Positions 2,629-57,008 are shown, counted from the first letter of the stretch. The stretch: DNA of 64,000 nucleotides from Auanema rhodensis (GCA_964057225.1 OZ059894.1:17236001-17300000); one strand, 5' to 3'. A program made the numbers and translations. The notes: generated by a model not told the origin, from the letters alone.

Positions 2629-2994
2629 CGTTCCATTCGGAGACTCTATATATGTAACTGCAGGGTTAGAGCCAGACCGACTAGAGGAATGTGGAATGGC
2701 ACCGCCTTCCCTCATGCCCCTATTCGGGAGTTCGCCCCTTTGCAAGCCCATGGACGGTTTGTATCTAACTTAGTTAATCTTATATATTAGTCTTTGTCTT
2801 GTAAATGTAGTTTACTTTATCCTTGTGTTATTGTATTGTAATGATATTGTATTGTGTATAATAAACCTATATATTTCCTTATCTTATGTAATCCTTATGC
2901 TCTGTTTCCATACCGCTACACTTATGGAATACTATACGCGTAGTTGAGCAGACTACAATGGTCTGTTCAATATACGTAGGAGCATAATGGAACG
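2629..2994 (+). repeat. E1 5' LTR
   Basis: Direct repeat of 14013-14378; 8-bp terminal inverted repeat CGTTCCAT...ATGGAACG; AATAAA near 2860. Confidence 0.97.
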
Positions 2995-3007
2995 TGGGGG
3001 TTCCACC
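2995..3007 (+). promoter_or_regulatory. E1 primer-binding site (tRNA-Gln, one mismatch)
   Basis: TGGGGGTTCCACC directly after the LTR; complementary to the 3' end of metazoan tRNA-Gln (GGTGGAACCT-CCA) with one A>G change. Confidence 0.85.
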
Positions 3008-3977
3008 TCGAACTCATTTTTGTCGCAAAAACTCGCATAAAAAGTCTATATTTTGATATCTAAATTAAAATTTCCTCCACGGTTAGCAACATAATGAGGT
3101 CGCCAACTTGTATAAGGTGCAGGTACAAGGGATCTCTCTTTTAGAGAGCTAGGACTATATAATTTTGAATTTTTACCCGCTGTCCCCACTCATAAAACCG
3201 TCTGAGTGTCCACCCTTATAATATCGTATCCTGCACCGCTTCTCTTGCATTTTTTTTTGAGGACGTTTGGATCGAAATAGGGGACAATTTCACCAAACGA
3301 AATTTTGATTTCATTATTATTTGGCACCGAGGAGTTAGAATGAAATTTTGAAAGCGCACAAAGTTTAATATTTTATTGTGGTCAGGACTAGAGATTTGAA
3401 AGTTAAATTCAGGCGTAAAAGAGCATGCTAAGCCTAAATATTTTTGCGGGAGCCGTTATTCGGTTTTTATTTTTTTTTGATTGTGAGAATAGACCACACT
3501 AGTCCGAAAAATCCTGGCACAAATTTTATTGCCTGTCAGGTCATTTTGGCGAAAGCACATGGGCTACGGATGTTTTCTTCTCCGTAGAATGTGTCACCTT
3601 CCTCAGCTCATTTTTGTTGCTAACATCATAAGATATTCCCACACACCTACCGTAGTCTTCATATTGTAATATTCTATAAATTAGTAAAATGGTTTAAAGA
3701 AAAAAATTGCGTTTTATAAACGAGCTTTGGTCTCAGTCCATTAGTAAAATGAGCAATCTTTTTAAAATATTCTCGGAATCTCATTAGCATGCCAAAATCA
3801 TTCCGGAAAAGAATCGCCCACGGCTTTTAATAATCAACGTGCACATGAGCCATTTTCCCAAGGCGCACGCACTCTTTCTTTATTAATAAGCTCGACCAAA
3901 GTTTGTGTTATGAAAAAAAAAAGAGAGAGAGAGAACAAATGAGTGAAATTAAGTATTTATTATATATAAAACAATTG

Positions 3978-4328
3978 TTAAAAGCCCCATTTAAAATGCA
4001 ACTGTCTCACAAATTCTATAGGCTGTGAGATGGGCTCATTGCTAGGCTCTAAATACTGCGAATACACTGAATCCGCAGAGGTCCTTAGCAATAAGCCCAT
4101 AGGAGACTGTTCATAAAACAAATAAATTTTAAACAAAATTTTAGACATATAATCATAAAAATCATGAGGCTTATGCTCATACCAATTCCAAGGGGATGCG
4201 ATTAAATTGGGGTTTTCATACCAATGCGCGCACAAATCGGTGAGGCACCATCGCCCAATAGCTGCAACCTCATCCGCTATTTCTTGCATTAGGGAGAAAT
4301 TCACTAATCCCCTCCCCAGATAATGCAT
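3978..4328 (-). CDS. Antisense ORF of unknown function in the E1 leader (116 aa)
   Basis: ATG-started, not overlapping another ORF, globular W/Y/H-rich composition, flanked by AT-rich tracts; no family recognised. Confidence 0.4.
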   Translation of the reverse strand: MHYLGRGLVNFSLMQEIADEVAAIGRWCLTDLCAHWYENPNLIASPWNWYEHKPHDFYDYMSKILFKIYLFYEQSPMGLLLRTSADSVYSQYLEPSNEPISQPIEFVRQLHFKWGF

Positions 4329-4926
4329 TTTTAAATCCTCGATAAACTAAAATTTTTTTTTTATTATTAATATAACATGTTTCTTTGTTTTAACCAACCA
4401 TCTTAATCATGTCTGGGTGAGGCCTATAAGCTAACACTTCGTCTTGATCATACAAGACGAGGTCAGCGTACAGCTTCCTCAAGACAAAAGTCATTTCCGA
4501 TAGACCTTCATAAGCCATTCTTTGATTATTTTGTTTCAGCTCTACAAATATGAAGATTCTTATGCATAAAAAGGGGACATAAAACGACTGAAAATCTCTC
4601 TCAAACTTTCAAGAATTCAATTAGAGTAAAGTATTAAGATTGAGGCTAGAAAGAGCGAAGACCAACAAAATTTATAATTGATGAACATCTGTGAAAAAGA
4701 ATAAAGAAAAGAGAATACGGTAGATAGGCGGAGCCAGATCTCAGGCCAAGATTTTAAAACTCTTTCTCATCTAATAACGATTCTCGGCGAAAGACGCCAA
4801 GTCTCAATCTTCAAACGTTTCTTACTTTCCCTATAACCGACCCGAATTTCTTGTCACTCATTCAACGTCAACATCCCCCATATAACGAAACACTCGCGGT
4901 TTTTCCAAACCAAGAGTGATTACAAA

Positions 4927-6519
4927 GTGGCACGAAGATACTCTTCGGCCGTCCCTGCTCTATACCCTTCTGAGTCCAGTGACGACATCGCAGTCGCCAG
5001 TCGAACCAGAAGCCGCACTCGACTCCTCAGTGTTCAGATTGAAGAGCCTGAACAAGAGGTAAAACCCAAAGTCGAGAAAACCTTCATTCCTCGAGAAGGC
5101 ACGTATTCACCTCCGGACAACACCGAGGAGGACCCTGATTTCTATATTCAGGACTACAATATTCAAACTTCAGCTTCAACTCCAAAAGTACACTCTTTTA
5201 AAAGTAATAAGAAGATTCAAAAAATTCAAAAACCAAAACAAATAACCTCTAATACTTCACCAGCCACCCCCCACCTAAACTTATCAACTTTATCAGTTAA
5301 TACTGATAACGATCTTGCATCTTCTTTTGAACTAACTCTAACACCGCAGGCATTTTCCACTCCGATAGAAAACTCACAAATTAATAAAACCTCATCTCTC
5401 ACTATTCGCAAATCACCCTTATCAGTTATCACTGATAAGCTTGATTCGAAAAAGCTTGATTCTAAAAAGATTAATAAAAGAAAAACTAATACACCGCGTA
5501 GGCGCTCAACCTCTAATAATCCCGTAGAACCAAATCAGGAAATTACCGAAGTTTTGCCCTTATCACTAACTACTGATAAGTTCAAAAGTAAGAAATCTTT
5601 AACAGCTCGCTTAATAAAAGTTTTGAATTTGTCTCCAGGGGAGGTAACAACAGAACAAGTTGATAACTCTCTTCACGTATCCTCCAACCCAACCCTTAAT
5701 AAGTCAGATAGCGCTATACCCAGCTCAAGCGTTTCAATACATTCGACGCCTCAGGCAACGAGTCGAGTTATCAAACTCCCAGGGAAGCGGTTCTCCTCAG
5801 CCGCCCCTACCATTAGTTATCCAACATCTGGTAACTCGAAAAAGGGAGGTAAGAATTTAACGGCGAGAAGCTCAGGCAGCAAAGGGATTACGTCATCTCA
5901 CACATACCCTGAGGATATACCAACCATGACGGAGACACCACGTCTTCCGGGAGCTGGTAAATCTACCATTGCGCACGCATTAAGCTCACCTTATTGCCCC
6001 ATATACGACGGAAGTCGTAACTTTAGAGATTTTGTGGCAAAGTTTAATACATTTTCTAACGCCTTAGGCTTAGTGATGCCCGAAAGACTAACTATTTTAC
6101 CATTACTATTGAAAAATGATAGAGCAATTCGAGCAAAACCCAAAACTTTTGCAGAGGCTTTTTATAGTGCTCGCTGGGAGGAATCAATTGCAAACCAAGT
6201 AGCAGACCCTCAGGCGCTATTGGTTAACGCAATTGAAAGAACTTTCCCCCCGCGCAGAAACAATGGTGGGAGAGGTATGGCAAGAGGTTATCAATCTTTT
6301 AATAATAAAAATTATCAAAATTATAATAATTATAATAATTATCATTCAAACTTTCAAAACAATCAAAATTATCATAAATTTTCAAAAAATCAAAAAGGCT
6401 GGAATTTCCAAAACCCATTTGCTAGGAACCGCATTTTGGTGACCGCGGTCGAAATTATCAGAATCAAAATCAAAATGGGTATCAAAGAAGCCACAATGCA
6501 TCACAAAATCAAGAAATGA
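4927..6519 (+). CDS. gag: Gag-like ORF: S/T/K/P-rich disordered N-terminal region, capsid-like segment (apparently internally deleted), N/Q/R/G-rich tail
   Basis: Position before pol; PIYDGSRNFRDFVAKF..LPLLLK and PKTFAEAFYSARWEE resemble the start and end of Ty3/gypsy capsid; first in-frame ATG only at 5926. Confidence 0.7.
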   Translation: MARRYSSAVPALYPSESSDDIAVASRTRSRTRLLSVQIEEPEQEVKPKVEKTFIPREGTYSPPDNTEEDPDFYIQDYNIQTSASTPKVHSFKSNKKIQKIQKPKQITSNTSPATPHLNLSTLSVNTDNDLASSFELTLTPQAFSTPIENSQINKTSSLTIRKSPLSVITDKLDSKKLDSKKINKRKTNTPRRRSTSNNPVEPNQEITEVLPLSLTTDKFKSKKSLTARLIKVLNLSPGEVTTEQVDNSLHVSSNPTLNKSDSAIPSSSVSIHSTPQATSRVIKLPGKRFSSAAPTISYPTSGNSKKGGKNLTARSSGSKGITSSHTYPEDIPTMTETPRLPGAGKSTIAHALSSPYCPIYDGSRNFRDFVAKFNTFSNALGLVMPERLTILPLLLKNDRAIRAKPKTFAEAFYSARWEESIANQVADPQALLVNAIERTFPPRRNNGGRGMARGYQSFNNKNYQNYNNYNNYHSNFQNNQNYHKFSKNQKGWNFQNPFARNRILVTAVEIIRIKIKMGIKEATMHHKIKK

Positions 6520-9500
6520 GCAATAATAGACAGAGAAATAACAGTACCTTTAGGGGAAATAACAACAATAGAGGCAGAGGTAGAGGCTCAAGAGTAAATA
6601 ATTTGACTCTGATATCTCCTTTGACTTTAGCCGTAGCTTTATCAGTAATCTTATCACTGGTTACAACAGCTGAAGCATACCAGCTATGTACTAAAGCTAC
6701 TGGAGGAGCCCTTCTCCGTCCCCCTTCTCTCCGAAAATGCTTATTACCACCAATAAAGCATATCTTACGAACAAAAGTTCATCTTTATACAAGGAATCAA
6801 ACGGCACATGAATGGGATGCATGGAGATGCTCCAAAGAAATTCATAAAATGTGTATCAGAGACCTTTTGTTCCTTAGAGATACCAATACAACGATAGCGA
6901 GAATTGAAAAGATACCAGCTGCAGAATGCAGACTGGCAGTGAGAGATAGAAGATGGAATTGGAGTGAATTAAAGAAGATCGACAGCATAACATATGCAAC
7001 TGACGAGCCTTCCTTCTCGCCAGGCCGATTTTTTAATAATGAACTATGTAAAGAGAAAGCCAGATTGGTTATCGAAAGAGGGGTTATGACACGGATGCCA
7101 GATGAAACTATAATCTCCAATTTAATACTAAATACTGAAGGATGCTTAGCGCATCATGGAGAATGTGCATCAGATACCTCAATCATCATATGGGAGAAAC
7201 AGCCTTATGAATATCGATGCAACTATATCGACATGAGTGAATATGATGCGATAATTGGAGACGGCATTATTCTGTTACCAACCACTCAATCAGCCCTTGT
7301 AATCGATCAAAAAGAGATACCGAAGCAAATATCTTCTTGTTTTAAACAGCCAATCTTCCACACCACAACTGGCAATTACATTCTCTTACCACAGTACCCA
7401 AATGACACCAATATCCATGTTTTAATAGAGAGAGAATATAAGAAACTTCCGGCGAAAAGAGATAAAAGAGCAATTGCGGAATGCACGGTTGAATTAAACA
7501 AGGAGTGGATACAAAAACAGGAAGATTTTGAAACTTTAATATTAAATATTTGTCCTTATCCTTTCTTACGACCGGTGATGAGTAATCCTGGTATTTATCA
7601 GATAATACCGCTTATAAAGGCCAGACGAGCTGTCAACCCTTCATATTCAATTATTGATTGGGTTTCAGCACATCCCGAGAAGTTTTATTTCTTCTTAAGA
7701 AGTCCCGTATATGATAAATCCATACAACGTTTCCTTCAAACATACGAAATACACAACCCTGAGGAAGCAATACTTTATTTTCTTGCGCAAAAGGAACTGG
7801 CAGCAACCACTCGCGGCGCTATACGGTATTTAACCTCACAACAATTATTAGAACAGATAGGTGACAGATTAACAGCACACGAATTTGACGAAAAACTACT
7901 AGAAAAGGACGGATCCTACCGTGAAAGAGCCGAAAGCATAGCGATGGAGCTAGCTTATACACCGGTAATATTTGAAAACAATCTGTCGGTACCATCAAGG
8001 CAAGAGGTTTTAAAATCCTTTGTGAACATGCCGCCTATCCGACCAACTTTAACAACTGACAATGCTGATGAGCGTATAGTACTTAGAAATACTCTTTACT
8101 TATACCATAACTTGATGACATTGCGAGTAATAAGGCCAAATAAAACAGCAGCAGCCGTAGATGATGAAAAGTTCCGACAATTAACAATCAATGTGCCAGA
8201 TACCAACAAACTATATCGAGATAAAGATTCTAACTACGGTATATCGATAGGCCCCCACCCTCGCATTCAAACTCCAAGCGCGTATATTGAAACGTATACG
8301 TATATTGAAACACCGCCTTATCTGACTAGAAGACTGTCATTAACGACAACAACGGACAAACCCGCTTCACTAGTTCAGGAGACAACTATAAGCTATACGA
8401 CTCGGATTCCGACGACAACCACAGTTGACACGACAACAGCCGTGATAACTACGACTCTCTCGCCAACAACATTAGCAACAGTCACTGACACGGCGTCACG
8501 AACCTTAAGGAAACAAAGAACATCATCTCCACCCGTAGAAACCAGAGAAATTCAGGCTCAGGCAACGTATACAGCGTCAAAAGTGAACAACGAAATACAA
8601 TTCAACCTCAACGTATCTCGCAGAATAGCTCAAGATCATCTACAATATACAACAACACTCATACAAGAAGAGCTACAGAAACATTTTATGGAATCTTATG
8701 AATCCATATGTGAGATTCAAAATAGATACCTCGAGCTATGGCGTTCTATTTTACACATAGAACCTACAATAGCAATGAGGACTATTTTAGGAAGAGAGGA
8801 TATTGCAGCCCGTTTCGTAGGCAGCGATATAGTTCATGTTCATATATGCCTACCTCTTCAACCTAAAGCTGTTTATCATAATCATAAGATCAATGATACA
8901 TGCTATTTGGAAACACCAGTAATAACAGAAGATGAGAGATTATATTTTGCTGCTCCAGGATCAAGAGACTTATTAACACATGGAAAAGAGATAGATTGCG
9001 AACATGTACCAACAGATGTGTACTATCAAAATGGAGAATGGATAAATATAAATGGATCGGTTGAAGTAAAACCAATATCACTCTTTGATAAAGCGAAATA
9101 CCACCAATTAACACCTTTAAAGTTCACAGGCGCTAACTTATACACCAATTTATCATTGAGAGTTTACTCAATGTCAACAGCTATTGCATATGGAGCAAGT
9201 TTAGCATCCATACGACAGAACCATGTTTTACATACTATTCACAACGATCCAAAAATTACGTCAGCCTTTAATCTTTTGAAAAAGGGCAGTGACTATATCT
9301 CTAAAGCAGCTGAGTTCACAACTTCCGCCTGGACTAGCGTAAAACAATTTCTAATAGGATCAATTGAGAGAACACTCATCTTCATAGGATCAATAGTCAC
9401 GATTGCCGCAGTATTAATAATTCTTTTCGTTGTTGCTAAATTTTGGTTCTTCAGGGCCACTCCACTAACCGTAATGCATGTCCACGAAATAGATAATGAG

Positions 9501-12500
9501 CCCCCAGGCTATGAAGAAACATTGGAACTTGTAAGCCGCCCAGACCAACAGATGCCAGATAACATCATGAAGCAATACTATCCTGCTTTAGTAACATTTA
9601 TTCCAATCGCAATACCATTTGTTGCTTCTATTGCATCAGCGGAAACAAAGTTACCATTAATATATATATCAGTTGAAGATAAACTGATTTTAGCTTTATG
9701 GGATTCAGGCTCATCAGTGTCATATGTTAGGCTCTCCACCCTCAAATATCTGAACATGGCCGAAAATGTCAAGAAGAGACATTTAGTAGCGATGGCAGCC
9801 AACAAGTCCACTTTCACATTTTATGGAAAGATAAATCTTGTAATTGAAATTGCCGGTTACGAGATCGAACACACCTTTTTGGTCTCAAACGATCATGACT
9901 GTCCTGCTCCCGCTTTAATTGGACTAGATTTCATGAAAGCGCTTAACAGCGAAAACATCGACGTTAGCCTTAAACCATCCAAGAAGAGGTTGGAGATTGA
10001 TGCCATCCCATTAATAGGAAATGAATCTATTAAGCATACGGAGATAACTGTGAATATCATTAATTTAAGAACAAAAACATTAAAACCTGATGAAGAGGCA
10101 CCTATCCCAATAAAGACAGATAAACCACTAGAATCTAACGAAGTGGTTGTCTTAGGGGATAGTGGAAGCGCATTAAAATCATTATATCCAACTGCGTTTC
10201 GTGATACCAGTGGAGTATATGTTATGTTCCGTAACGATACCGATGAAACAATAGCTATGGAAGCTAATTCAGTCATCGGACAGGCAATAATTGGAGAAAT
10301 TCCGGCTTGTGAACCCTTTAAGCATAAGCCAATTCTACCATATGTTCCGCCAGAAGCCGATTGGGAGAGTAAACTACCATATTTTCCAAGAGACTTCATA
10401 AAAGATCTTGATCTAGAGAATGCTGATCTCACGAAAGAAGAAAAACATGAGCTTACAAAAATAATTGAAAGCAATCGTGAGGCATTTCTTAACGAGGACA
10501 GGAAAATAGGCTTATTCAAAGGTTCTATAGAGCATACCATACCATTGAGAACAGATATGGATATGCCAAAGCCGAGAATAACACGTATTCCCTTAGGAAA
10601 ACAGGAAGAAATTGAAAAGCAAGTCAAAGAAATGCTTGAGCAAGGCATAATAGAGCCTTCTACATCTCTATTTAATAGCCCTGTAGTACTAGTTAAGAAG
10701 AAAGATGACACGTATAGGTTTGTGACAGATTTTCGAGCTTTAAATAATGTCACACGCAAGCAAGCTTATGTCATTCCAAGCATTTCTGACATAGTTGATT
10801 TGGCAGCAGGCGCTCAATTTTTCACAAACTTCGATTTAGTGTCAGGATTTTTTCAAATATCCTTGAGAAAATCAGATCGACCACTAACAGCATTTACGAC
10901 CACATCCGGCACATACCAGTACAAACGGATGCCGATGGGCCTTTGTGGAGCCCCTCATACCTTTCAAACAGCAGTAAGGTATTTGCAAAGTAAATGTTCG
11001 TGTAAACTATTTGTTTACTTGGACGATCTATTAGTTATATCTGATACAAGAGAACAACATCTCAAAGATATCGATGATTTACTGCAAGCAGTAGAAGAAT
11101 TGGGAATGAAGATAAAGCTTAAGAAATGCGCTTTTGCTCAACCAGAAGTGAAATTTCTAGGACTTATTGTAGGACGTCAAGGTATAAAACCTGACCCTCA
11201 AAAAGTCGCCGCCATACAAGATTATCCGGCACCAAAGAATGCAACAGGTGTACGAGCATTCTTGGGAATGGTTGGATTCTTTCGCAAATTCATGAAAGAT
11301 TTTGCACGTATCGCAAGCCCTTTATACGATCTGACAAAGGCAGATACTGAATTCAAATGGGAAAACAAACATCAAGAAGCTTTAGACCTCCTTAAAAGAA
11401 TTTTAATACAGGCACCCGTTTTAAGCCCACCTAAATCGGACCGCTTGTTTATAGTTGAAAGCGACGGTAGTAACATCGCCATAGGTGCTGTATTATTACA
11501 ACCGGAAGATCCAAAACAACCTCTGAAAAATCTACACCCTATCGCATTTGCAAGCAGAAAACTAGTTAAAGCCGAACGTAACTACGCACCAATCGAGATA
11601 GAAGCATTAGGCCTTGTATATGCATTAAATCAATTCCGTACATACATTCTTGGAACTCATACTATATGTATTACGGACCATCGACCCCTTACCAGCTTAA
11701 TGACACGCAGAGACTTATTTGGTCGTCTTGCGAAGTTCCAGCTGGTCATCCAAGAATATGATATTGAAATAAAATATCGCGCAGGCCAATTAAATAAAGT
11801 ATGCGATGCTCTATCTCGATATATAGGTGAAGAAGCTAACGATGCTAAGCCGGAAACAAAGAAGAAGAAAATGGAAGAAATTCACATTAACGCCATAAAT
11901 ACACCAACAATAAAGGAAATTCAACTAAACACCCCTTGGATTAAACGGACGATAGCGGAGATTGAATATAGAGCACAAAAGAACATGACAGCTAATGACA
12001 GATATTGTGTCATAAATGACTTGCTCTATACAAAACCAACAGACAAAAAGCCACAACCACAAGAACACCCCATAATTGAGGAAATAATCAAAGTTTTTCA
12101 TGAGGATCCTACAATTGCAGCACATCAAGGAATTATTAAAACAAAAGAAGCAATTCTAAGAAGATTCTATTGGACAAATATGCAGAACGACATTACTATA
12201 TTCATCAAGAATTGCATTAAATGTGCTCAAAGAAAAAAAGATCCACATTCCATGACGGTACAACCAATAGGTCATTTTGAGATACCAAGCAAGCCATTTG
12301 AACGAGTCCACATGGACGTAATGGGACCATTTCCCCCTTCAAAAAGAAACTGTACCTACGTCATTACCATGCAAGACGCATTTACAAAATGGTCAACAAC
12401 AATTGCTGTACCACAAATAACAACGGAAATCACAATTGACCGATTTCTAAGACATTTCGTTTACATTTTTGGACCACCCCATCGCTTGATCACCGATAGA

Positions 12501-13304
12501 GGTTCGAACTTTGTATCCAAAAAGTTCGAAGAAATGTGTACTAAACTTGGAATCAAACATGAACCAACACTACCACACCAAAAGAACTCAAATGGACAAG
12601 TGGAAAGACTTCACAGAACCCTCGAAGAAGGATTAACCCACTACTTAAAAAAGGACCTTAGTGACTGGGATACTGTATTACCAAAAATCACTTTTGCTAT
12701 CAACAATATTCAGCACGCGACTACAGGAATTGCGCCATACATTGCATTATTTGGTAAAGAATGCAGAATGTCAATGGACGCTGAATTACCAGAAACGATC
12801 ACCAAAATTCAAGAAATTTCTGAAGAATTACTCCAAAGAAGACCAGATATGGACAAGAGAGACAAAATAATAAAGAACCGCATAGCTAAAAATCAAGAAA
12901 ATGCGAAAAAGAAGAAGGATAGAACGCAAAGAGCACACCATAGAGACATTCAACCGGGCGACATGGTGATGACGACCATAAAATCACACCAAATCGACCA
13001 AAAGCTTCGGAAAAGCTATGATGGACCATACGAAGTCATCAACGTAGAAGGATCAAAAGTTCAAATCAGAAATTCATCAGGAAAACTACAAGATATCCAC
13101 AAAGATAACTTGAAAATCTTCTCTCCTGCTTCACAAAACATCTCTTACAACACTCGCGCAAGATTTCGAGAAAGTCAAGCAGAAGAAGATAGCGACATCG
13201 AAAGAATAGAAGTGATCAACAGGAACAACAAAGATAGCATAGATACAGAGCCAGAAAATGAAAATGAAGACGAAATATGGCTTCCGAGGAATGAAGAAGA
13301 ATAA
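6516..13304 (+). CDS. pol: Env-Pol fusion polyprotein (2262 aa): signal sequence, gB-like glycoprotein, TM helix, aspartic protease, RT, RNase H, integrase
   Basis: One uninterrupted ORF. PR LWDSGS (D at 9702); RT SPVVLVKKKD..DFRALN..MPMGL..YLDD (11016-11027); RNase H ESDGS..EALGL..TDHRPL; IN H..H..CIKC, HMD..TDRG..VER, GPY. Confidence 0.96.
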   Translation: MSNNRQRNNSTFRGNNNNRGRGRGSRVNNLTLISPLTLAVALSVILSLVTTAEAYQLCTKATGGALLRPPSLRKCLLPPIKHILRTKVHLYTRNQTAHEWDAWRCSKEIHKMCIRDLLFLRDTNTTIARIEKIPAAECRLAVRDRRWNWSELKKIDSITYATDEPSFSPGRFFNNELCKEKARLVIERGVMTRMPDETIISNLILNTEGCLAHHGECASDTSIIIWEKQPYEYRCNYIDMSEYDAIIGDGIILLPTTQSALVIDQKEIPKQISSCFKQPIFHTTTGNYILLPQYPNDTNIHVLIEREYKKLPAKRDKRAIAECTVELNKEWIQKQEDFETLILNICPYPFLRPVMSNPGIYQIIPLIKARRAVNPSYSIIDWVSAHPEKFYFFLRSPVYDKSIQRFLQTYEIHNPEEAILYFLAQKELAATTRGAIRYLTSQQLLEQIGDRLTAHEFDEKLLEKDGSYRERAESIAMELAYTPVIFENNLSVPSRQEVLKSFVNMPPIRPTLTTDNADERIVLRNTLYLYHNLMTLRVIRPNKTAAAVDDEKFRQLTINVPDTNKLYRDKDSNYGISIGPHPRIQTPSAYIETYTYIETPPYLTRRLSLTTTTDKPASLVQETTISYTTRIPTTTTVDTTTAVITTTLSPTTLATVTDTASRTLRKQRTSSPPVETREIQAQATYTASKVNNEIQFNLNVSRRIAQDHLQYTTTLIQEELQKHFMESYESICEIQNRYLELWRSILHIEPTIAMRTILGREDIAARFVGSDIVHVHICLPLQPKAVYHNHKINDTCYLETPVITEDERLYFAAPGSRDLLTHGKEIDCEHVPTDVYYQNGEWININGSVEVKPISLFDKAKYHQLTPLKFTGANLYTNLSLRVYSMSTAIAYGASLASIRQNHVLHTIHNDPKITSAFNLLKKGSDYISKAAEFTTSAWTSVKQFLIGSIERTLIFIGSIVTIAAVLIILFVVAKFWFFRATPLTVMHVHEIDNEPPGYEETLELVSRPDQQMPDNIMKQYYPALVTFIPIAIPFVASIASAETKLPLIYISVEDKLILALWDSGSSVSYVRLSTLKYLNMAENVKKRHLVAMAANKSTFTFYGKINLVIEIAGYEIEHTFLVSNDHDCPAPALIGLDFMKALNSENIDVSLKPSKKRLEIDAIPLIGNESIKHTEITVNIINLRTKTLKPDEEAPIPIKTDKPLESNEVVVLGDSGSALKSLYPTAFRDTSGVYVMFRNDTDETIAMEANSVIGQAIIGEIPACEPFKHKPILPYVPPEADWESKLPYFPRDFIKDLDLENADLTKEEKHELTKIIESNREAFLNEDRKIGLFKGSIEHTIPLRTDMDMPKPRITRIPLGKQEEIEKQVKEMLEQGIIEPSTSLFNSPVVLVKKKDDTYRFVTDFRALNNVTRKQAYVIPSISDIVDLAAGAQFFTNFDLVSGFFQISLRKSDRPLTAFTTTSGTYQYKRMPMGLCGAPHTFQTAVRYLQSKCSCKLFVYLDDLLVISDTREQHLKDIDDLLQAVEELGMKIKLKKCAFAQPEVKFLGLIVGRQGIKPDPQKVAAIQDYPAPKNATGVRAFLGMVGFFRKFMKDFARIASPLYDLTKADTEFKWENKHQEALDLLKRILIQAPVLSPPKSDRLFIVESDGSNIAIGAVLLQPEDPKQPLKNLHPIAFASRKLVKAERNYAPIEIEALGLVYALNQFRTYILGTHTICITDHRPLTSLMTRRDLFGRLAKFQLVIQEYDIEIKYRAGQLNKVCDALSRYIGEEANDAKPETKKKKMEEIHINAINTPTIKEIQLNTPWIKRTIAEIEYRAQKNMTANDRYCVINDLLYTKPTDKKPQPQEHPIIEEIIKVFHEDPTIAAHQGIIKTKEAILRRFYWTNMQNDITIFIKNCIKCAQRKKDPHSMTVQPIGHFEIPSKPFERVHMDVMGPFPPSKRNCTYVITMQDAFTKWSTTIAVPQITTEITIDRFLRHFVYIFGPPHRLITDRGSNFVSKKFEEMCTKLGIKHEPTLPHQKNSNGQVERLHRTLEEGLTHYLKKDLSDWDTVLPKITFAINNIQHATTGIAPYIALFGKECRMSMDAELPETITKIQEISEELLQRRPDMDKRDKIIKNRIAKNQENAKKKKDRTQRAHHRDIQPGDMVMTTIKSHQIDQKLRKSYDGPYEVINVEGSKVQIRNSSGKLQDIHKDNLKIFSPASQNISYNTRARFRESQAEEDSDIERIEVINRNNKDSIDTEPENENEDEIWLPRNEEE
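6603..9452 (+). other. env: Envelope glycoprotein domain, herpesvirus gB / class III fusogen-like
   Basis: Signal LTLISPLTLAVALSVILSLVTTAEA|Y; Cys-rich ectodomain with N-glycosylation sequons; furin-type RDKR (7458-7469) and RKQR (8508-8519); CEIQNRYLELWRSILHIEPTIAMRTILGREDIAARFVGSDIVHVHICLP..CYLETPV..EIDC parallels the gB core-helix region as I recall it; TM LIFIGSIVTIAAVLIILFVVA at about 9375-9440. Confidence 0.85.
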
Positions 13305-14001
13305 CAACAAGATAATGCTACGTTATTTAAATTATTGTAACAAAATAACGATGAATTAGAAAAAAAAAAAAAAAAAAAAAATTAATGCTAAATAACATTC
13401 AAAATAAAAATAGCATTTAATAGAGATTGAGAAAGGAAAAATAAGGCAAATTCTAAACGAGGAGATGTTATGACTAATGGTTCCAAGTTACCGTAATCCT
13501 ATGCGGACTAGAGGACATTTTGACAACCATCCGAGCTCCATGTGCCTCCCCAAATAAGATGAGATAAACACTGGTAGGCGTATAAACCACAATTTCATCT
13601 TAAGTGGTAGTCTCCATTAGTAATCAAGGATTCACTCTGGGAGACATATGGAGACACATTATTAAATCATAATCTCGGTTCAATTTAGAAATGAGTACTT
13701 CTTGAGACCATTAGTCAAAATAATAACATATTCCCATTCATTACTAGCCCCTTATTCTACAATCTCTATTAAGAAATGCTTGAATATTAAGATAATTAAT
13801 TTATGAAATTAATAATATTCTAATTCATCGTCACTTCATATTATATTGAACCCTTCTTATAAATTATTGTAATTTTGTTTTATACTAATTAAAACTCTAT
13901 CATACTATAGTTATTGTGAAGCTAAAACATTTAAACTTTAAAACTCAGTTACATATAAGCCCAAACTTTTGTTTAAAATATCGCGAGGTGCGACAATCTT
14001 T

Positions 14002-14010
14002 GAAAAAGGG
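14002..14010 (+). promoter_or_regulatory. E1 polypurine tract
   Basis: GAAAAAGGG, then CA, then the 3' LTR. Confidence 0.8.
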
Positions 14011-14012
14011 CA

Positions 14013-14378
14013 CGTTCCATTCGGAGACTCTATATATGTAACTGCAGGGTTAGAGCCAGACCGACTAGAGGAATGTGGAATGGCACCGCCTTCCCTCATG
14101 CCCCTATTCGGGAGTTCGCCCCTTTGCAAGCCCATGGACGGTTTGTATCTAACTTAGTTAATCTTATATATTAGTCTTTGTCTTGTAAATGTAGTTTACT
14201 TTATACTTGTGTTATTGTATTGTAATGATATTGTATTGTGTATAATAAACCTATATATTTCCTTATCTTATGTAATCCTTATGCTCTGTTTCCATACCGC
14301 TACACTTATGGAATACTATACGCGTAGTTGAGCAGACTACAATGGTCTGTTCAATATACGTAGGAGCATAATGGAACG
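14013..14378 (+). repeat. E1 3' LTR
   Basis: 366-bp direct repeat of 2629-2994. Confidence 0.97.
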
Positions 14379-15794
14379 GCCGAGTGGTCTAGTGGTATAA
14401 TTCTCGCTTAGGGTGCGAGAGGTCCCGGGATCGATCCCCGGCTCGGCCCAGATTTTAACATTTTGTTTCGAGAAGTGTACTTCTTCTTCGTATTTAGTGG
14501 AAGTTCTCTTGAAATTCAATTAATTTTAAGCTTTAGTATTCACCTATAGATATCAGATTAATAATATTCATTTAAAAATATATATGGAAAAGTAGGAGGT
14601 TCATCGTAGTGAATGGATATTTCAGGCCGAGTGGTCTAGTGGTATGATTCTCGCTTAGGGTGCGAGAGGTCCCGGGATCGATCCCCGGCTCGGCCCACGT
14701 TTTAACATTTTTTTTCGAGAAGTGTACTTCTTCTTAGTATTTAGTGGAAGTTCTCTTGAAATTCAATTAATTTTAAGCTTTAGTATTCACCTATAGATAT
14801 CAGATTAATAATATTCAGTTAAAAATATATATGGAAAAGTAGGAGGTTCATCGTAGTGAATGGATATTTCAGGCCGAGTGGTCTAGTGGTATAATTCTCG
14901 CTTAGGGTGCGAGAGGTCCCGGGATCGATCCCCGGCTCGGCCCACGTTTTAACATTTTTTTTCGAGAAGTGTACTTCTTCTTAGTATTTAGTGGAAGTTC
15001 TCTTGAAATTCAATTAATTTTAAGCTTGAGTGTTCACCTATAAATATCAGATTGATAATATTCAGTTAAAAATATATATGGAAAAGTAGGAGGTTCATCG
15101 TAGTGAATGGATATTTCAGGCCGAGTGGTCTAGTGGTATGATTCTCGCTTAGGGTGCGAGAGGTCCCAGGATCGATCCCCGGCTCGGCCCACATTTTAAC
15201 ATTTTGTTTCGAGAAGTGTACTTCTTCTTCGTATTTAGTGGAAGTTCTCTTGAAATTCAATTAATTTTAAGCTTGAGTGTTCACCTATAAATATCAGATT
15301 GATAATATTCAGTTAAAAATATATATGGAAAAGTAGGAGGTTCATCGTAGTGAATGGATATTTCAGGCCGAGTGGTCTAGTGGTATGATTCTCGCTTAGG
15401 GTGCGAGAGGTCCCGGGATCGATCCCCGGCTCGGCCCACATTTTAACATTTTATTTCGAGAAGTGTACTTCTTCTTCGTATTTAGTGGAAGTTCTCTTGA
15501 AATTCAATTAATGTTGAGCTTTAGTATTCACCTATAGATATCAGATTAATAATATTCAGTTAAAAATAATTATGGAAACGTAGAAGGTTCATCGTAGTGA
15601 ATGGATATTTCAGGCCGAGTGGTCTAGTGGTATGATTCTCGCTTAGGGTGCGAGAGGTCCCGGGATCGATCCCCGGCTCGGCCCACGTTTTAACATTTTT
15701 TTTCGAGAAGTGTACTTCTTCTTAGTATTTAGTGGAAGTTCTCTTGAAATTCAATTAATTTTAAGCTTTAGTATTCACCTATAGATATCAGATT
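14378..15794 (+). repeat. tRNA-Pro(AGG) array, segment 2 (6 genes; G1 of the first gene, 14378-14449, is the last base of the E1 LTR)
   Basis: 247-bp period; gene starts 14378, 14625 ... 15613. Confidence 0.97.
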
Positions 15795-18486
15795 TGTCAC
15801 ATCTGCAAGCACATGGTAAACATGTGCGCGCTATTCAAATAGCGGGAGCCTGAACAAGCCCCGCCTACAACATGGGACACACATGACACTCTTGCTTCTG
15901 GCCTAACCCAGATAGGTTGTCTTTTAGCCATGTGAGTCTCATCTCTATATCATCTCTATATATAATCTATTTAATACTTTATCATATCTCTTTATATTCT
16001 TCCTTAATGTAATTCTTATATTGTATTTTCTTGTTATCTGATAATGAATCCTTTTCTCTTTAAGTATTTGTCGTAATAAGGAAATCGGGGCGTTCGGGTC
16101 TGCCTACCTAAGGAACAAGGTAGAAGTACATATATCTTCCGACCATGAAAAGACGGGAAGAAACAATATGTAACGTGGAGGTTCCACCTTGCTTACTTTA
16201 CTGTTAATTTATTGACAGCAAGTTTACGAGACTTTTGGACTTAATTACCCAACAGTGAGGAGTAACCGAGCCGTGCACCATAATTTCCCCAAAAATTATT
16301 TTGGCTACCACTTCTCCTCCGCTCAACGAAAACTGGGAGGTGTCTGAGACGTTTGGGGAAACTATCAGACAATAGTTTTGACGAGCGTTACCTTTTTGTT
16401 ATGCACGCGCGTGCTATTTTGATTCATTACTTTATGATGTGAATGTCCAGTGTGGCAACAGAGCTCACTTTCTAGCTGAGTTGTTTGGAAGCTGGAGGCT
16501 GTTGGGATAATTTTATTTACGATTTTTGATTTTGATTCACATCCAAGGGTTCATCAGGGTTCTACTCCTGTTAACTCTTTTCTTATTAGTTCAGAGATAA
16601 TAAGAATATTTAAATTCCTACCCACCCAAGTCCACTCTACGTCTGCCAACGTTTCCTTTTTCCTATATTATTGACAGATTACTGAATTTAAATTCCTATA
16701 TCAATCTTAAATTACCTTCTAAATCTTTTGAAATTAAATTAAAAATTATCTTAATTAAGATTTATTTTGAAATTCTTTCTACAAATCTTAATAAACTTTA
16801 TAAAATTGAACTTAATATACGAGATGAGACATTTTTGTTTACTTTAAGCTTACTCACATTCAAATAGTTGGCCCACGCGTACCAGCTGTTCGGCATGTGT
16901 AGTCAATAACAGCTGTTAAAATTCAAAAGTTTTCAAACAGGCTTAAGGCACCATCTGTGATTCCTAATTTGTCTCTAAGCTGACATTAGTGATTATAATA
17001 TTCAAATATCACGACAGACGGTCAATGGTTGTTTACCATAAGCGCTAACATCTGGTGTCGTGACACATGGCTGGAGGCGGAGCTTGAAGCTTCAACGATC
17101 CTCCTTCATCAGACGCCATTGTCACAAACGTTTTTACTGGAGTCTAGTTGCTTCCAGTACGCGCTCTTATATTCATCTAACTGTATTCACCAGCCACCAT
17201 GTCGGACTCGGACATCAGCGAGGACAACAAAGATTAGGAACAAGGATCACCAGAGCCATACCTTTTGTATGTCACACAACAACAAAGAAGAATGAACAAC
17301 GGTTAATGACTTAGTTATGATAAAAGTGAATTCTACTCGAAACAAACTAACACCTTCATTCGAAGGGCCTTATTTAGTTACAGCAGTTCAAAGATCTTTC
17401 GTCGTGGTTCAAACAGATAAAGGAAAAAGCAGAAGAGTACACAAGGACTTCGTCAAACCTTACCAACGGACAACATCTATTCCGGTTATCACAATTTCTT
17501 GAAGGTAGTTTTTTTTTTAACAAAATCAAATTGTTGAAATTTTTTTATTTTATTTTGTGCCATTTCTGATTGTACCACATCTTTGTTGTTGATTGATTTT
17601 CTCTGAGAAGTCTGCTATTGTTTTACAAGGTTTTGTTTTATTACTCCAACTCTCATTGAGTAGATTTTTTTTTCAACATTCTCTTGTGAATCATGCTATT
17701 TTTTATGCTTAATCATTACTTGTATTCACCTTATGGACATTAGTCATACGGGTTAAACGAGTTTTCATTTTTTTGTACAGAACGGGCTCGACCTATTCTC
17801 AGGGTAACACCGTACCTGTACTACTCAAGAAAATGAACGACTATATCACAGTCGAATGGTTTAGAAGCAAAGCTCTCGTTTGCAAGCATTTCACTACTCA
17901 AGTGAATGAAATAGAATCTACTCGATACTACATTTCGAATTCAACAAACTTGAAGAGACAATAGCTAAACTTTCAAATCGTATTGTATACATTTTTTTTA
18001 TCCACTACACCATGATTTTTTTTTTCCAACATCCAACTATCTTAAAAAGTGAATTAATTTATTTTGTTTTTGAACGAGGACGTTCAACTTTTTAAGGTGG
18101 GGGGATGTCACATCTGCAAGCACATGGTAAACATGTGCGCGCTATTCAAATAGCGGGAGCCTGAACAAGCCCCGCCTACAACATGGGACACACATGACAC
18201 TCTTGCTTCTGGCCTAACCCAGATAGGTTGTCTTTTAGCCATGTGAGTCTCATCTCTATATCATCTCTATATATAATCTATTTAATACTTTATTATATCT
18301 CTTTATATTCTTCCTTAATGTAATTCTTATATTGTATTTTCTTGTTATCTGATAATGAATCCTTTTCTCTTTAAGTATTTGTCGTAATAAGGAAATCGGG
18401 GCGTTCGGGTCTGCCTACCTAAGGAACAAGGTAGAAGTACATATATCTTCCGACCATGAAAAGACGGGAAGAAACAATATGTAACG
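15795..18486 (+). mobile_element. E2: non-autonomous LTR retrotransposon, 2692 bp
   Basis: 381-bp LTRs 15795-16175 and 18106-18486 (one mismatch seen), ends TGTCACAT...ATGTAACG, TSD GATT, PBS TGGAGGTTCCACC 16176-16188, PPT AAGGTGGGGGGA 18094-18105. Confidence 0.96.
17317..17502 (+). pseudogene. Integrase C-terminal (GPY/F) remnant in E2
   Basis: KLTPSFEGPYLV...VHKDFVKPY aligns with E1 KLRKSYDGPYEV...IHKDNLKIF. Confidence 0.85.
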
Positions 18487-35307: not shown

Positions 35308-38300
35308 CGTTCCATTCGGAAATCAATACGTAGCAGGCGGGTTAGAATCAGACGACATGAGGCTGAGAGAGGACGACACGCCCTTCATATGGAACACAGA
35401 CTTCAGCTTTGCCTTATGGAATGACTATGGATGGTTGGTCTTCCTTTCTTAGCTCTCTTTCACTTTATATCTTTATGTAGACTTATATAACTTATTGTAA
35501 TCATGTAGACATAATAAACCTTTCTTTCTCGAGTCTTATGTTTATCCATTATGCTCTTTATCTACCGCTACATCTGGAATACTATCACACTCATCTTGTA
35601 GGCTTTATTGGTCTATAGGATCGACGTGAGAGCATAACGGAACGTGGAGGTTCCACCTCGAACATTTTATCTTGATTTCTTGACTATTTTCTCTTATATT
35701 TCGTTATTTTCAATATTTCATTGAATCTGAATTCTCTTATATCTCTAAACCATCTACTCCATGTCTTAACACAATACGGTGGGGCCAACAACGTTTAAAA
35801 GGGAACAGATGCAAGGACCACTCCTTTTGGAGATGGATATTTTATATTTTTTGAAACTGAAGTTATATTTTCCCGTTTGTTCACAATTTTCTGTCTGTCT
35901 GAACCCAACAATTTTTATATCCTTGCTGTTAACATCGAATACTCTGTTACCCGAACTCGAAGCATTTTTGAGGACCCTAGGATGAATTAGTGAACAAATT
36001 CACCCAAGGATAATTTTTATTGAGATTTATGCCCACACTTTCTCCTTTTAAGGATTGATTTTGGCTTCGAGGAAAGAATAGCCACGGTTATTTCTTTATT
36101 TTTGTGGATGAAACAATTTTGCGCACCAAATCGAGATTATTTCATATTTTGCGATCAGGACTATTTTATTTTGCGTTACATTTCTGTTCAGACAACTTTT
36201 TGCCATTAACATCCAAAAATATTTTGATAACGCATTGAATTTACACGGGAAACCTCACCTAAATGGGAGGAACATTATGAAAAGTGAATTTTAAGATCGC
36301 TATAGTCCGAAAAATCCTGTACAATTTTACGAACTGAATTATTATTAGTGATTGTCTATCAGGTCGTGTTGGCTTAAGCATATCAGTTTGGATTTTCTCC
36401 CCTTACTATATGTCACCTTCCTCATACCGTTATTGTTGGTTTGAAGCATAAGACTCATTCCTAAACACCATAATTCTTTAAATATAGTTATTGTAATCTT
36501 TAGTCATCTATTCCTAGCCATAATTTTAAAACTAGATTTCTGATCATGATGGGACTACGGTACTCATTCGTTTTCCAAATTGCTTCCTTAAAAGAGTAAT
36601 GCTATTACGAATGTACATTATGAAAACCGCTAAAATCCTTTGAACATTTACCAAAGTCCATTTTCGTGGCATTTTCGATCACTCGTGAGTCCAAGAAGAT
36701 CAGAATCGTCAGAAAAAGAACATGCTTTCTAATGATCGTTATTGTGTCATTGACAACATGTTATACACAAAACCAAGCAGAAAACGACCACACCCAGCTT
36801 TGATTTTACCAAGGGAAAGCAAGCTTATCAACAAGGTTATCGAAGAATTTCACGAAGACCCAGCAATTGGAGCACATCAAGGAATTAACAAAACTAAAGA
36901 AGCCATACTACGAAGATTTTGCTGGACAAATATGCAAACGGACATAGCAATTTTTGTGAAACAATGCGTTAAATGCGCACAAAGGAAGAAAGATCCTCAC
37001 GCTATGACCGTTCAGCCTATGGGTCAATTTGAAATACCATCAAAACCATTTGAGAGAATACATATGGATATTATGGGACCATTCCCTACTTCAAAAAGAA
37101 ACAACAATTATGTCCTAACAATACAAGATTCATTCTCCAAATGGGCGACAACCATCGCTATACCAACAATTGTCACCGATGTCATCATTGATAGATTCCT
37201 CAGGAATTTCGTATATATTTTTGGACCACCAAATCGTTTAATAACCGATCGTGGATCTAATTTTGTATCAAAGAAATTTGAAGAAATGTGTGAAAAACTT
37301 GGCATTAAACACGAGCCAACACTCCCTCATCAGAAAAACTCTAATGGACAAGTCGAAAGACTACACAGAACGCTAGAAGAAGGATTAACACACTATCTCA
37401 ACGAAGACGTAACTGATTGGGACATGTATTTACCAAAAATTACTTTTGCGTTAAATACAATAACACACGCAACCACAGGAATCTCTCCATACATAGCATT
37501 ATTTGGAAAAGAAAGTCGTATGAGATTAGACGAAGAATTATTCCCCGAGACATTACAACCAGAGATCTTGGAAGAAATTGAGAATACCGAATATATCAGA
37601 GGAGAAAGAAGAACCATCATTCAAGAAAATCTTGCAAAACATCAAGAAACCGCGAAGAGAAAACATGATGGACGACAACGAATAGAAGAAAGAGATATCC
37701 GAAAAGGAGACCAAGTTATGTTAGCAATTAAAGCGCATAAACCAGGTCAAAAGCTTCGCAAATCATATGATGGACCATTTGAAGTCATCAACGTTGAAGG
37801 AAACATGGTACAACTCAAGAATCCATTTGGAAAAATTCAAGACGTACACAAAGACAATCTCAAACTTTTTGAACGCAAAATGGAGCATACAATCGCTCAA
37901 AACACGCGATCAAATACAACGACTTATGACACGGACGACGACAGCGATATTGAGATCATAAAAGTCATAAATGGTAACGATAACTATGACTCTACTGAAG
38001 AAACAGAACCAGAAGACCCATCGGACCAAAATTGGCTACCACCAAGAAGAAGACGATGAAAGAAATAATTTCGAGATTGATAAAATTATTGTGTGTTGTA
38101 TCAACTCTCTTTTAAAAAAAACCAGAGCTATTAATATTATTATATCATTGAAAAACTTGAGTAAGACGAGATGTAAGCTAATAATCAAAAAGCATTTCAG
38201 TTTCAAAGCATATATGATTATAAAACTTCATCAATTTCAAATAATTTCCCGTAAATAATGAAGAAATGAAAGATAAGAGACATTATATTGCATATTCATC

Positions 38301-39091
38301 TGAGCAACAGTCCTTATCAAGTAGTTAATGATTCAATTCCGGAAATTATATGGGATTTAGTTTAATTTTTTTTATTATTACAATTCGCTTTGAATACGCT
38401 GAAGAAACATGCTAGCTCCATCGATAATATAGCATGACTCTCGTTTCTCTATACTCAAACAAGTTAGACATGCAGCGTCGTGCCTAAAAAGCTATTTTGC
38501 GCACTCTCGCTGACAAAATATAGCCCTGGTATTCTAAAAGATTGTTTTATTCCTTAATATTCATGTATTTTCAAATAATTTTTATTAAATTCTTTTCAGA
38601 TAATATTGTTTAACATTATATTGTAATTTATCTTTACTATTTTTATGTTAACATTGTAATTTTTATTTTTTAAAACTAAACCTTCTGCTACGATTGAAAC
38701 AAGCCACATACTTTGCTATTCGCGAGGACGCGACATAAACTCGAAAAAATGGCACGTTCCATTCGGAAATCAATACGTAGCAGGCGGGTTAGAATCAGAC
38801 GACATGAGGCTGAGAGAGGACGACACGCCCTTCATATGGAACACAGACTTCAGCTTTGCCTTATGGAATGACTATGGATGGTTGGTCTTCCTTTCTTAGC
38901 TCTCTTTCACTTTATATCTTTATGTAGACTTATATAACTTATTGTAATCATGTAGACATAATAAACCTTTCTTTCTCGAGTCTTATGTTTATCCATTATG
39001 CTCTTTATCTACCGCTACATCTGGAATACTATCACACTCATCTTGTAGGCTTTATTGGTCTATAGGATCGACGTGAGAGCATAACGGAACG
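35308..39091 (+). mobile_element. E3: internally deleted LTR retrotransposon related to E1, retaining only integrase, 3784 bp
   Basis: 337-bp LTRs 35308-35644 and 38755-39091 (no mismatch seen), ends CGTTCC...GGAACG, TSD ATAA, PBS TGGAGGTTCCACC 35645-35657, purine-rich GAAAAAATGG before the 3' LTR. Confidence 0.96.
36722..38059 (+). CDS. Ty3/gypsy integrase (445 aa)
   Basis: HHCC zinc finger (FHEDPAIGAH..CVKC), D-D-E (HMD, TDRG, VER), GPF motif, acidic tail; aligns end to end with the E1 integrase. Confidence 0.93.
   Translation: MLSNDRYCVIDNMLYTKPSRKRPHPALILPRESKLINKVIEEFHEDPAIGAHQGINKTKEAILRRFCWTNMQTDIAIFVKQCVKCAQRKKDPHAMTVQPMGQFEIPSKPFERIHMDIMGPFPTSKRNNNYVLTIQDSFSKWATTIAIPTIVTDVIIDRFLRNFVYIFGPPNRLITDRGSNFVSKKFEEMCEKLGIKHEPTLPHQKNSNGQVERLHRTLEEGLTHYLNEDVTDWDMYLPKITFALNTITHATTGISPYIALFGKESRMRLDEELFPETLQPEILEEIENTEYIRGERRTIIQENLAKHQETAKRKHDGRQRIEERDIRKGDQVMLAIKAHKPGQKLRKSYDGPFEVINVEGNMVQLKNPFGKIQDVHKDNLKLFERKMEHTIAQNTRSNTTTYDTDDDSDIEIIKVINGNDNYDSTEETEPEDPSDQNWLPPRRRR

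Positions 39092-55084: not shown

Positions 55085-55087
<3 letters not shown>

Positions 55088-55126
<39 letters not shown>
55088..55126. repeat. (TA)n microsatellite inside E4
   Basis: About 19 TA units, followed by a short TTCCTACTATA tandem repeat. Confidence 0.95.
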
Positions 55127-55130
<4 letters not shown>

Positions 55131-56645: not shown

Positions 56646-57008
56646 TAAAAATCCATAATTTCTATATAAAAATCACAAAAAGTATAATACCATTTTCATA
56701 ATTTTCATCTAAACTTGAACCTATATATAATTTTTTTTTTCTCATTTAAGTAATACATAAAATTCTACACAAATTATTGTACATTTTTTATTTTTCACTC
56801 TCATAAAAATATTGTATTAATAACCAAAATTTCAAAATAAAATTATACATCATACTTGGAATCTTTCAAAAATCACTGCAAAGTTTTAATCAACAATCTT
56901 CATCACTTTTTCACCTAACTGGTCAGAAAGGAGGCGACAAAAAGGAAGGAACAGACCGACCTAGTTTTAAAAAGGATAAAAGGACAGAAAACAGCAACAA
57001 AGATAACA

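What the first reader, a model, noticed from the sequence alone, without database searches (positions are those of the whole stretch)
6300..6700. Gag appears to read into Env through an internal signal peptide (single Gag-Env-Pol polyprotein)
Seen: the gag tail is N/Q/Y/R/G-rich up to ..FQNPFARN (about 6430). The Env-Pol frame (-1) is open from just after TAG 6423-6425 and continues the same composition (PHFGDRGRNYQNQNQNGYQRSHNASQNQEMSNNRQRNN..RGRGRGSRVNN) straight into the hydrophobic signal. I see no canonical XXXYYYZ slippery heptamer in the overlap. Inference: a small indel broke an ancestral single ORF. A basic RNA-binding tail followed by an internal signal recalls flavivirus capsid-envelope polyproteins, and the topology works (Gag cytosolic, Env lumenal, Pol cytosolic). 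The ATG at 6516 could alternatively start Env-Pol independently. No CCHC knuckle is present, so the RG/N-rich tract may act as nucleocapsid.
Basis: partly seen in the sequence, partly recalled or inferred. Interest (0 to 1): 0.85.

Follow-up and report, generated by a model that had tools for sequence, protein, structure and literature searches.

The report
Broken copy of Gag-Env-Pol retroelement
This is a damaged copy of a virus-like jumping gene, likely from a roundworm, whose other sequenced copies keep capsid and envelope in one reading frame that runs on into the enzymes; that layout is already published, but a motif conserved just before the envelope's predicted internal signal suggests the element's own protease likely frees the capsid from the membrane, as in flaviviruses.

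Summary
The window holds an 11.75-kb Ty3/gypsy LTR element (LTRs 365/366 identical) in a tRNA-Pro array, with a gB-type env between gag and pol. In this copy gag and env-pol overlap out of frame, with no slippery heptamer, stimulatory structure or acceptor site. Contigs from three DNA studies differ from the window by one frame-changing indel inside the overlap, which puts both frames in register; they also hold about 93 capsid codons that this copy lacks. Among 150 env homologues, 49 carry a gypsy capsid upstream of an internal signal in the same protein, 16 of them with Pol behind. So the family makes one Gag-signal-Env-anchor-Pol polyprotein and this copy is broken. The layout is in print (Burro, PMC6431247; GAG-ENV-POL errantiviruses, PMC13524379; Sacco 2022, recalled), and this scan found it before in flatworm DNA. 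What I did not find in print: a protease-boundary-like motif next to the signal (22 of 49 vs 17 of 147 control windows), and RG/N-rich tails where the zinc knuckle is absent. Both fit flavivirus-like capsid release, which is inferred and untested.

The parts
2629..2994 (+). 5' LTR, 366 nt, CG...CG ends; 4-bp target duplication GCCG at the 5' end of a tRNA-Pro gene
   Evidence: 1 difference between the LTRs; flanks; for the array
2995..3006 (+). Primer-binding site, tRNA-Gln-like
   Evidence: its reverse complement matches 11 of 12 letters of the Gln PBS listed for Caenorhabditis elements in PMC13524379 supplement 1; host tRNA not checked
4837..5925 (+). 363 stop-free codons in the gag frame before the first ATG; S/T/K/P-rich; start unexplained
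   Evidence: longest stop-free run in 2000 shuffles was 235 codons
5926..6425 (+). Gag: capsid-like domain with an in-frame loss of about 93 codons near 6110-6130, then first half of the RG/N/Q/Y-rich tail
   Evidence: capsid profile positions 6-49 (E 1e-4) and 147-174 (weak, E 0.44) matched, about 92 missing; contigs of other runs hold 279 more bases there (table 8); 33% identity over 83 aa to P0003
6426..6519 (+). Overlap of gag and env-pol frames; this copy's frame break lies in here
   Evidence: (table 4)
6426..6593 (+). Second half of the RG/N/Q-rich tail, likely RNA-binding nucleocapsid substitute
6594..6605 (+). VNNL, predicted site for the element's own protease just before the signal
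   Evidence: motif enrichment in relatives; inferred
6606..6677 (+). Predicted internal signal peptide ending in A-E-A before YQLC
   Evidence: KD 2.24 over 19 aa; hydrophobic segment at this place in 104 of 122 homologues whose env start is matched
6678..9377 (+). gB-type (class III) Env ectodomain with a furin-type site at 7458-7469, then a helical and a Thr-rich insert
   Evidence: Pfam Monjiviricetes_fusion E 4e-15 (55 bits, cutoff 27) and Glycoprotein_B E 6e-9 (below cutoff)
9378..9434 (+). Env membrane anchor, followed by a linker with PPGY (9501-9512)
9669..13304 (+). Pol in the same frame as Env: protease, RT (YLDD), RNase H, integrase
14013..14378 (+). 3' LTR

Best explanation
The window holds a recently inserted but broken copy of a Ty3/gypsy element whose other sequenced copies keep gag and env in one frame, and the family likely makes a single Gag-Env-Pol polyprotein that is predicted to be threaded through the ER membrane twice. 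Shown: this copy has a frame break in the gag/env overlap and an in-frame capsid deletion; other copies and many relatives are continuous. Inferred: Gag is made in the cytosol; the hydrophobic segment acts as an internal signal, and signal peptidase cuts at A-E-A; Env enters the lumen and stops at its anchor; Pol comes out in the cytosol. The element's protease would then cut at the motif before the signal to free Gag, and behind the anchor to free Pol. The RG/N-rich tail would bind RNA in place of a zinc knuckle. This copy could only have moved with help from an intact copy, or broke after insertion.
For: Junction: same frame-changing indel in X3, X5, X10, from three studies; X5 and X10 bridge it; X1 and X8 span it with one gap each. 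Relatives: of the 150 best of 483 hits, 122 match the env start, 104 have a hydrophobic segment there, 76 have it more than 150 aa from the N-terminus, 49 have a gypsy capsid upstream (39 not profile seeds), 16 also have PR/RT/IN downstream. Pfam finds a gag domain ahead of env in 11 of 24 hand-picked proteins. Several fused proteins nearly fill their contigs, so introns cannot explain the fusion. Topology: at most two segments under the dG 1.5 cut, signal and anchor, in 19 of 19 proteins scanned from signal to protease. Motif [VI]Nx[VILM]: 22 of 49 next to the signal, 17 of 147 in windows further upstream (Fisher p 2e-6), 0 of 27 in far-signal hits without a capsid hit; 6 of 16 before protease, 4 of 14 in the RNase H-integrase linker, 1 of 90 in RT core windows. 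RGNQY fraction before the signal 0.54 without CCHC (33 proteins) vs 0.28 with (14). RT tree: window in a 95/94 clade whose named rows are nematode elements.
Against: All read evidence is from assembled contigs, which drop rare variants; no raw reads and no RNA across the junction. X3's contig has fewer than 31 letters on one side of the indel, so it does not formally bridge; 13 pieces were not shown. 14 of 104 homologues have the signal within 35 aa of the N-terminus, two of them (P0029, P0125) with Pol behind; these may be separate Env-Pol frames or broken copies. The motif was chosen after seeing the window and P0003, 27 of 49 relatives lack it within the window tested, and relatedness was not corrected for. 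Signal and anchor calls rest on simple hydrophobicity scales, not a trained predictor; the signal missed the dG cut in 7 of 19 proteins. A Pro-rich hydrophobic stretch before the protease (KD 2.07, summed dG +3.0) would flip Pol into the lumen if it crossed the membrane; it is absent from most relatives.
Confidence: 0.88

Rival explanations
1. The family is a single frame, but the break in the window is an assembly error rather than a mutation of this copy.
For: No piece shown or 17 carries the window's form across the junction; the element sits in a long tandem array that is hard to assemble.
Against: The copy differs from the majority contigs at about 1% of letters and by several other length changes including the capsid deletion; a minor X3 contig matches the window's letters at 6003-6080 exactly, so a window-like copy exists. 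Its LTRs differ at 1 of 366, so the assembly is not noisy overall.
Confidence: 0.2
2. Two frames are the working design: Gag-Env-Pol is made by a programmed -1 frameshift in the overlap.
For: The frames overlap by 94 nt in the -1 relation usual for gag/pol; near-slippery heptamers lie just upstream.
Against: No canonical heptamer inside the overlap; those upstream run into TAG 6423-6425; no downstream structure; copies in three studies are in one frame.
Confidence: 0.03
3. Env-Pol is made separately from ATG 6516 or from a spliced message, and the signal is an ordinary N-terminal one.
For: ATG 6516 lies 30 codons before the hydrophobic segment; 14 of 104 homologues start near the signal; splicing of a nematode gypsy element is known (Cer1, PMC10309623, passages read). 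It could run alongside the polyprotein as a second product.
Against: No TTN(C/T)AG|R acceptor in 6200-6600; P0003 has no Met between its start and the signal; Met is not enriched before the signal in relatives.
Confidence: 0.07

Closest known systems
GAG-ENV-POL HSV/gB-type Ty3/gypsy errantiviruses of Nematoda, Bryozoa and Platyhelminthes (Chary and Hayashi, eLife 2026, PMC13524379; read: abstract, section 5 part 1, section 22, passages, 30 of 36 nematode rows of supplement 1, four rows of supplement 6)
   Same: Gene order, gB-type env, Ty3/gypsy pol, LTRs, Gln-type PBS as in the Caenorhabditis rows. The paper notes ectodomains flanked by two membrane segments. Supplement 6 lists ENV-POL hits in two Auanema assemblies. 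P0160 (C. brenneri, contig 12007 nt) is likely Cbre_errantivirus_2 by species and contig length; its cluster representative P0112 falls in the window's RT clade.
   Different: A word search of the main text found no 'polyprotein', 'single ORF', 'fused' or 'frameshift', so processing is not discussed there; figures could not be seen. This copy would fail their intactness filter.
Nematode endogenous retroviruses, NERV (Sacco et al. 2022, J Gen Virol 103:1739; seen only as a reference, content recalled)
   Same: Recalled as nematode metaviruses with one continuous gag-env-pro-pol frame and an RNA-virus-like glycoprotein. PMC13524379 confirms that it reported the flipped env/pol order.
   Different: Could not be read. 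I recall accessory ORFs in some members; none of 100 aa or more lies on the plus strand here besides the two frames.
Burro/GYPSM1 of planarians (Arkhipova and Yushenova 2019, PMC6431247; passages of section 7 read)
   Same: Env in frame between gag and pol in one polyprotein, called there the first such case, with homology to mononegavirus fusion proteins.
   Different: About 4900 aa with BIR, BCL2, ankyrin and other cargo, and CCHC knuckles; this element is about half the size with no knuckle.
Atlas virus, Belpaoviridae (Merchant et al. 2022, PMC9094657; passages read)
   Same: Nematode element with Env inside a single polyprotein.
   Different: Order Gag-Pol-Env, class II fusion protein, Bel/Pao RT.
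Flavivirus and hepacivirus capsid-envelope polyproteins (recalled)
   Same: Works-like analogy: basic capsid tail, then an internal signal cut by signal peptidase on the lumen side; flaviviruses free the capsid with their own protease on the cytosol side.
   Different: No homology; RNA viruses with class II fusion proteins and a serine protease.

Membership tests
GAG-ENV-POL HSV/gB-type Ty3/gypsy errantivirus | Pol order PR-RT-RNase H-IN | tested here: met
GAG-ENV-POL HSV/gB-type Ty3/gypsy errantivirus | gB-type env | tested here: met
   Monjiviricetes_fusion above cutoff, Glycoprotein_B E 6e-9 below cutoff
GAG-ENV-POL HSV/gB-type Ty3/gypsy errantivirus | Env between gag and pol | tested here: met
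GAG-ENV-POL HSV/gB-type Ty3/gypsy errantivirus | Near-identical LTRs and a tRNA primer-binding site | tested here: met
   365 of 366 identical; PBS 11 of 12 to a listed Gln PBS
GAG-ENV-POL HSV/gB-type Ty3/gypsy errantivirus | Ectodomain flanked by signal or membrane segment and an anchor | tested here: met
   (hydrophobicity scales only)
GAG-ENV-POL HSV/gB-type Ty3/gypsy errantivirus | RT groups with nematode members | tested here: met
   95/94 clade with Caenorhabditis, Acrobeloides and Diploscapter proteins plus two unnamed ones; no outgroup families were included
GAG-ENV-POL HSV/gB-type Ty3/gypsy errantivirus | Five-domain gB fold and cysteine-bridge type | not tested
   the ectodomain was not folded
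Intact errantivirus copy (as counted in PMC13524379) | Uninterrupted frames without large domain loss | tested here: not met
   this copy has a frame break and a capsid deletion; filed as a broken copy of the family, not as an intact element
NERV (Sacco 2022, recalled) | Continuous gag-env-pro-pol frame | tested here: met
   met at the junction in other copies and in relatives; not in this copy; the definition itself is recalled
NERV (Sacco 2022, recalled) | RT monophyly with the named NERV sequences | not testable with these tools
   paper and its sequence list not held
Belpaoviridae with env (Atlas, Tas) | Gag-Pol-Env order and YVDN-type RT motif in nematode members | tested here: not met
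   env precedes pol; RT motif is YLDD (definition)

The most novel reading that the evidence does not exclude
Gag-Env-Pol elements use a flavivirus-like maturation route that is new for retroelements. Gag is born tied to the ER by its C-terminal signal and is freed by the element's own protease at a conserved site. Pol is born as the cytosolic tail of Env, so it can reach a particle only through the envelope protein, and Env trimers would cluster and switch on the protease before capsid assembly. Transposition itself would then need Env and a membrane, which would explain why env stays in these elements across phyla.
Probability: 0.4. Interest if true: 0.65.

Novelty: new member of a known kind. 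Interest (0 to 1): 0.33.

Why it matters
The layout is known, so the finding mostly adds a family member and shows that the odd two-frame junction is damage. The processing question is open as far as my searches reach. A single frame forces one Gag, one Env and one Pol per protein, and signal cleavage parts Pol from Gag, so the textbook way of packaging Pol as a Gag fusion cannot apply. The conserved motif beside the signal gives a precise, testable cut site, and relatives occur in Caenorhabditis species that are easy to work with.

Tried and rejected
No whole genome is held for this window, so copies came from public runs. No RNA holder on record was listed; the guessed-RNA runs X12 and X13 did not cover the junction, which says nothing about expression. 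Programmed frameshift rejected. Splice acceptor not found. A third membrane segment before the protease judged unlikely. A budding motif (PPxY or P[ST]AP) behind the anchor is in only 4 of 30 proteins (background 2 of 253 windows), so it is not a family feature. A boundary motif just behind the anchor, with a looser pattern, was in 10 of 30, with no control run. Folding the helical Env insert from one sequence gave pLDDT 45 and was not searched; the Atlas look-up did not complete. Fixed targeting of tRNA 5' ends rejected: the three other LTR insertions in the array sit at other places in the unit. Searches for prior print: 'gag-env-pol'+retrotransposon (one paper), 'gag-env-pro-pol' (none), NERV terms, 'internal signal'+gag+env+retrotransposon+nematode (one unrelated paper), 'signal peptidase'+LTR retrotransposon+env+polyprotein+in-frame (two papers, listing only, not on these elements), 'between gag and pol' (eight listed, one read in passages). 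Sacco 2022 and the figures of PMC13524379 could not be seen and may already discuss the internal signal.

Full report
Setting. The window is mostly a 247-bp tandem array of tRNA genes (166 tRNA-Pro and one tRNA-Ser call). An LTR element of 11,750 bases sits in it at 2629-14378. Its LTRs are 366 nt with one difference, end CG...CG, and are flanked by the duplication GCCG at the 5' end of a tRNA gene. The primer-binding site matches 11 of 12 letters of the Gln site listed for Caenorhabditis elements in supplement 1 of PMC13524379. The host is not given; the nearest named proteins are from Auanema sp. and Diploscapter pachys, so a rhabditid nematode is likely.

Observation. Pfam places a gB-type fusion domain, then protease, RT, RNase H and integrase in the long frame. 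There is no canonical slippery heptamer in the overlap, no folded structure behind it and no nematode-type acceptor.

Other copies. Seventeen public runs from five studies hold the stretch or part of it; seven different runs were laid, all as contigs. In one search, X5 and X10 bridge the junction and X3 covers it near a contig end; all three differ from the window by the same frame-changing indel inside the overlap. By frame arithmetic that puts gag and env-pol in register, with no stop between. In one search, X1 and X8 span the junction with exactly one gap, whose place was cut from the table. X12 and X13 did not cover it. The same contigs hold 279 more bases near 6126 (table 8), and a capsid profile shows about 92 positions missing there in the window. 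A minor X3 contig has a different frame-changing difference a little upstream (depth 125 against 1200). So this copy is broken in two places in gag and at the junction, and differs from the majority by about 1%. Whether the junction indel is a mutation or an assembly error cannot be told from contigs.

Relatives. P0003 (Auanema sp.) matches the window's capsid end (33% over 83 aa) and its env start (56%) in one protein, and fills its contig to within 44 bases. A three-sequence profile of the env start found 483 proteins; the best 150 were analysed. Of these, 122 match the env start, 104 have a hydrophobic segment just before it, and 76 have it more than 150 residues in; 14 have it at 36-150 and 14 within 35. 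Of the 76, 49 carry a gypsy-type capsid upstream (10 were seeds of the capsid profile) and 16 of those have protease, RT or integrase behind env. Named ones come from Caenorhabditis nigoni, brenneri, remanei, briggsae and japonica, Aphelenchus and Acrobeloides; the ten looked up, mostly knuckle-bearing, have no host name. In an RT-RNase H tree of 18 rows the window falls in a 95/94 clade whose named rows are all nematode.

How it likely works. Hydrophobicity scans give a marginal first segment and one strong anchor, and no third segment under the cut, in 19 proteins scanned from signal to protease (the dG scale values are recalled). The first segment ends in A-E-A before the conserved YQLC, a typical signal peptidase site (recalled rule). 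The motif [VI]Nx[VILM] lies within 30 residues before the signal in 22 of 49 capsid-fused proteins, against 17 of 147 windows further upstream and 0 of 27 far-signal hits without a capsid hit. It is also common before the protease (6 of 16) and in the RNase H-integrase linker (4 of 14) and rare in RT core (1 of 90), which is how a protease boundary motif should behave. The motif was picked after seeing two sequences, and kinship was not corrected for. For the tail and Met tests I dropped 2 of the 49 (P0022, P0059) whose signal lies over 1000 residues in. In the 47 left, tails without CCHC are 54% R/G/N/Q/Y and tails with it 28%; Met before the signal is no more common than in control windows. 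The inferred order is: signal cleavage in the lumen, protease release of Gag from its membrane tether, and release of Pol from the Env tail. None of these cuts is shown.

What is known. In-frame env between gag and pol was described for planarian Burro (PMC6431247). GAG-ENV-POL elements with gB-type env are described for nematodes, bryozoans and flatworms (PMC13524379), which cites Sacco 2022 for nematodes (I recall it as reporting a continuous gag-env-pro-pol frame, but it is not held). Atlas shows another nematode element with env inside one polyprotein (PMC9094657). The bioRxiv Atlas capsid paper was seen in passages and added nothing. Earlier notes of this scan report the same layout in flatworm DNA. 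My searches found no paper on the internal signal or the adjacent motif, but the key nematode paper and all figures were out of reach.

Verdict. Observation confirmed and reading supported. It is a broken copy of a new member of a known kind. Interest 0.33, carried by the processing model rather than the gene order.

Noticed in passing
window 4837-5925: The gag frame is open for 363 codons before its first ATG, far beyond chance (shuffle maximum 235). A GTG in a purine-rich context at 4927 recurs in loose ends of related copies in three runs, so a non-AUG start or spliced leader is possible.
   Followed up: partly
window 7458-8560: Env carries an insert of about 370 aa after a furin-type site: a helical part shared with P0003 and a Thr-rich part. 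Relatives such as P0005 lack it. Single-sequence folding failed.
   Followed up: partly
window 15795-18486, 35308-39091, 54070-58225: Three more young LTR insertions in the tRNA array, each short and with 99.7-100% identical LTRs; the one at 35308 is a related deleted element (65% integrase identity, CG...CG ends).
   Followed up: partly
window 1-64000: Tandem array with 167 tRNA gene calls, 166 of them Pro(AGG), in 247-bp units; the array changes strand after the insertion at 54070-58225.
   Followed up: no
window 2629-2630 and 14377-14382: LTR ends are CG...CG rather than TG...CA, and the last LTR base plus the target duplication rebuilds the 5' end of the tRNA gene, which ARAGORN still calls (14378-14449).
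   Followed up: partly
window 9501-9512: PPGY behind the Env anchor, PPSY in P0003; such budding-type motifs are in 4 of 30 proteins tested.
   Followed up: yes
window 9570-9650: A Pro-rich hydrophobic stretch just before the protease is shared with P0003, P0004, P0056 and P0097; likely not membrane-spanning, role unknown.
   Followed up: partly
window near 10000 and near 12050: The window copy is also a few codons shorter than majority contigs at two in-frame places in pol.
   Followed up: no
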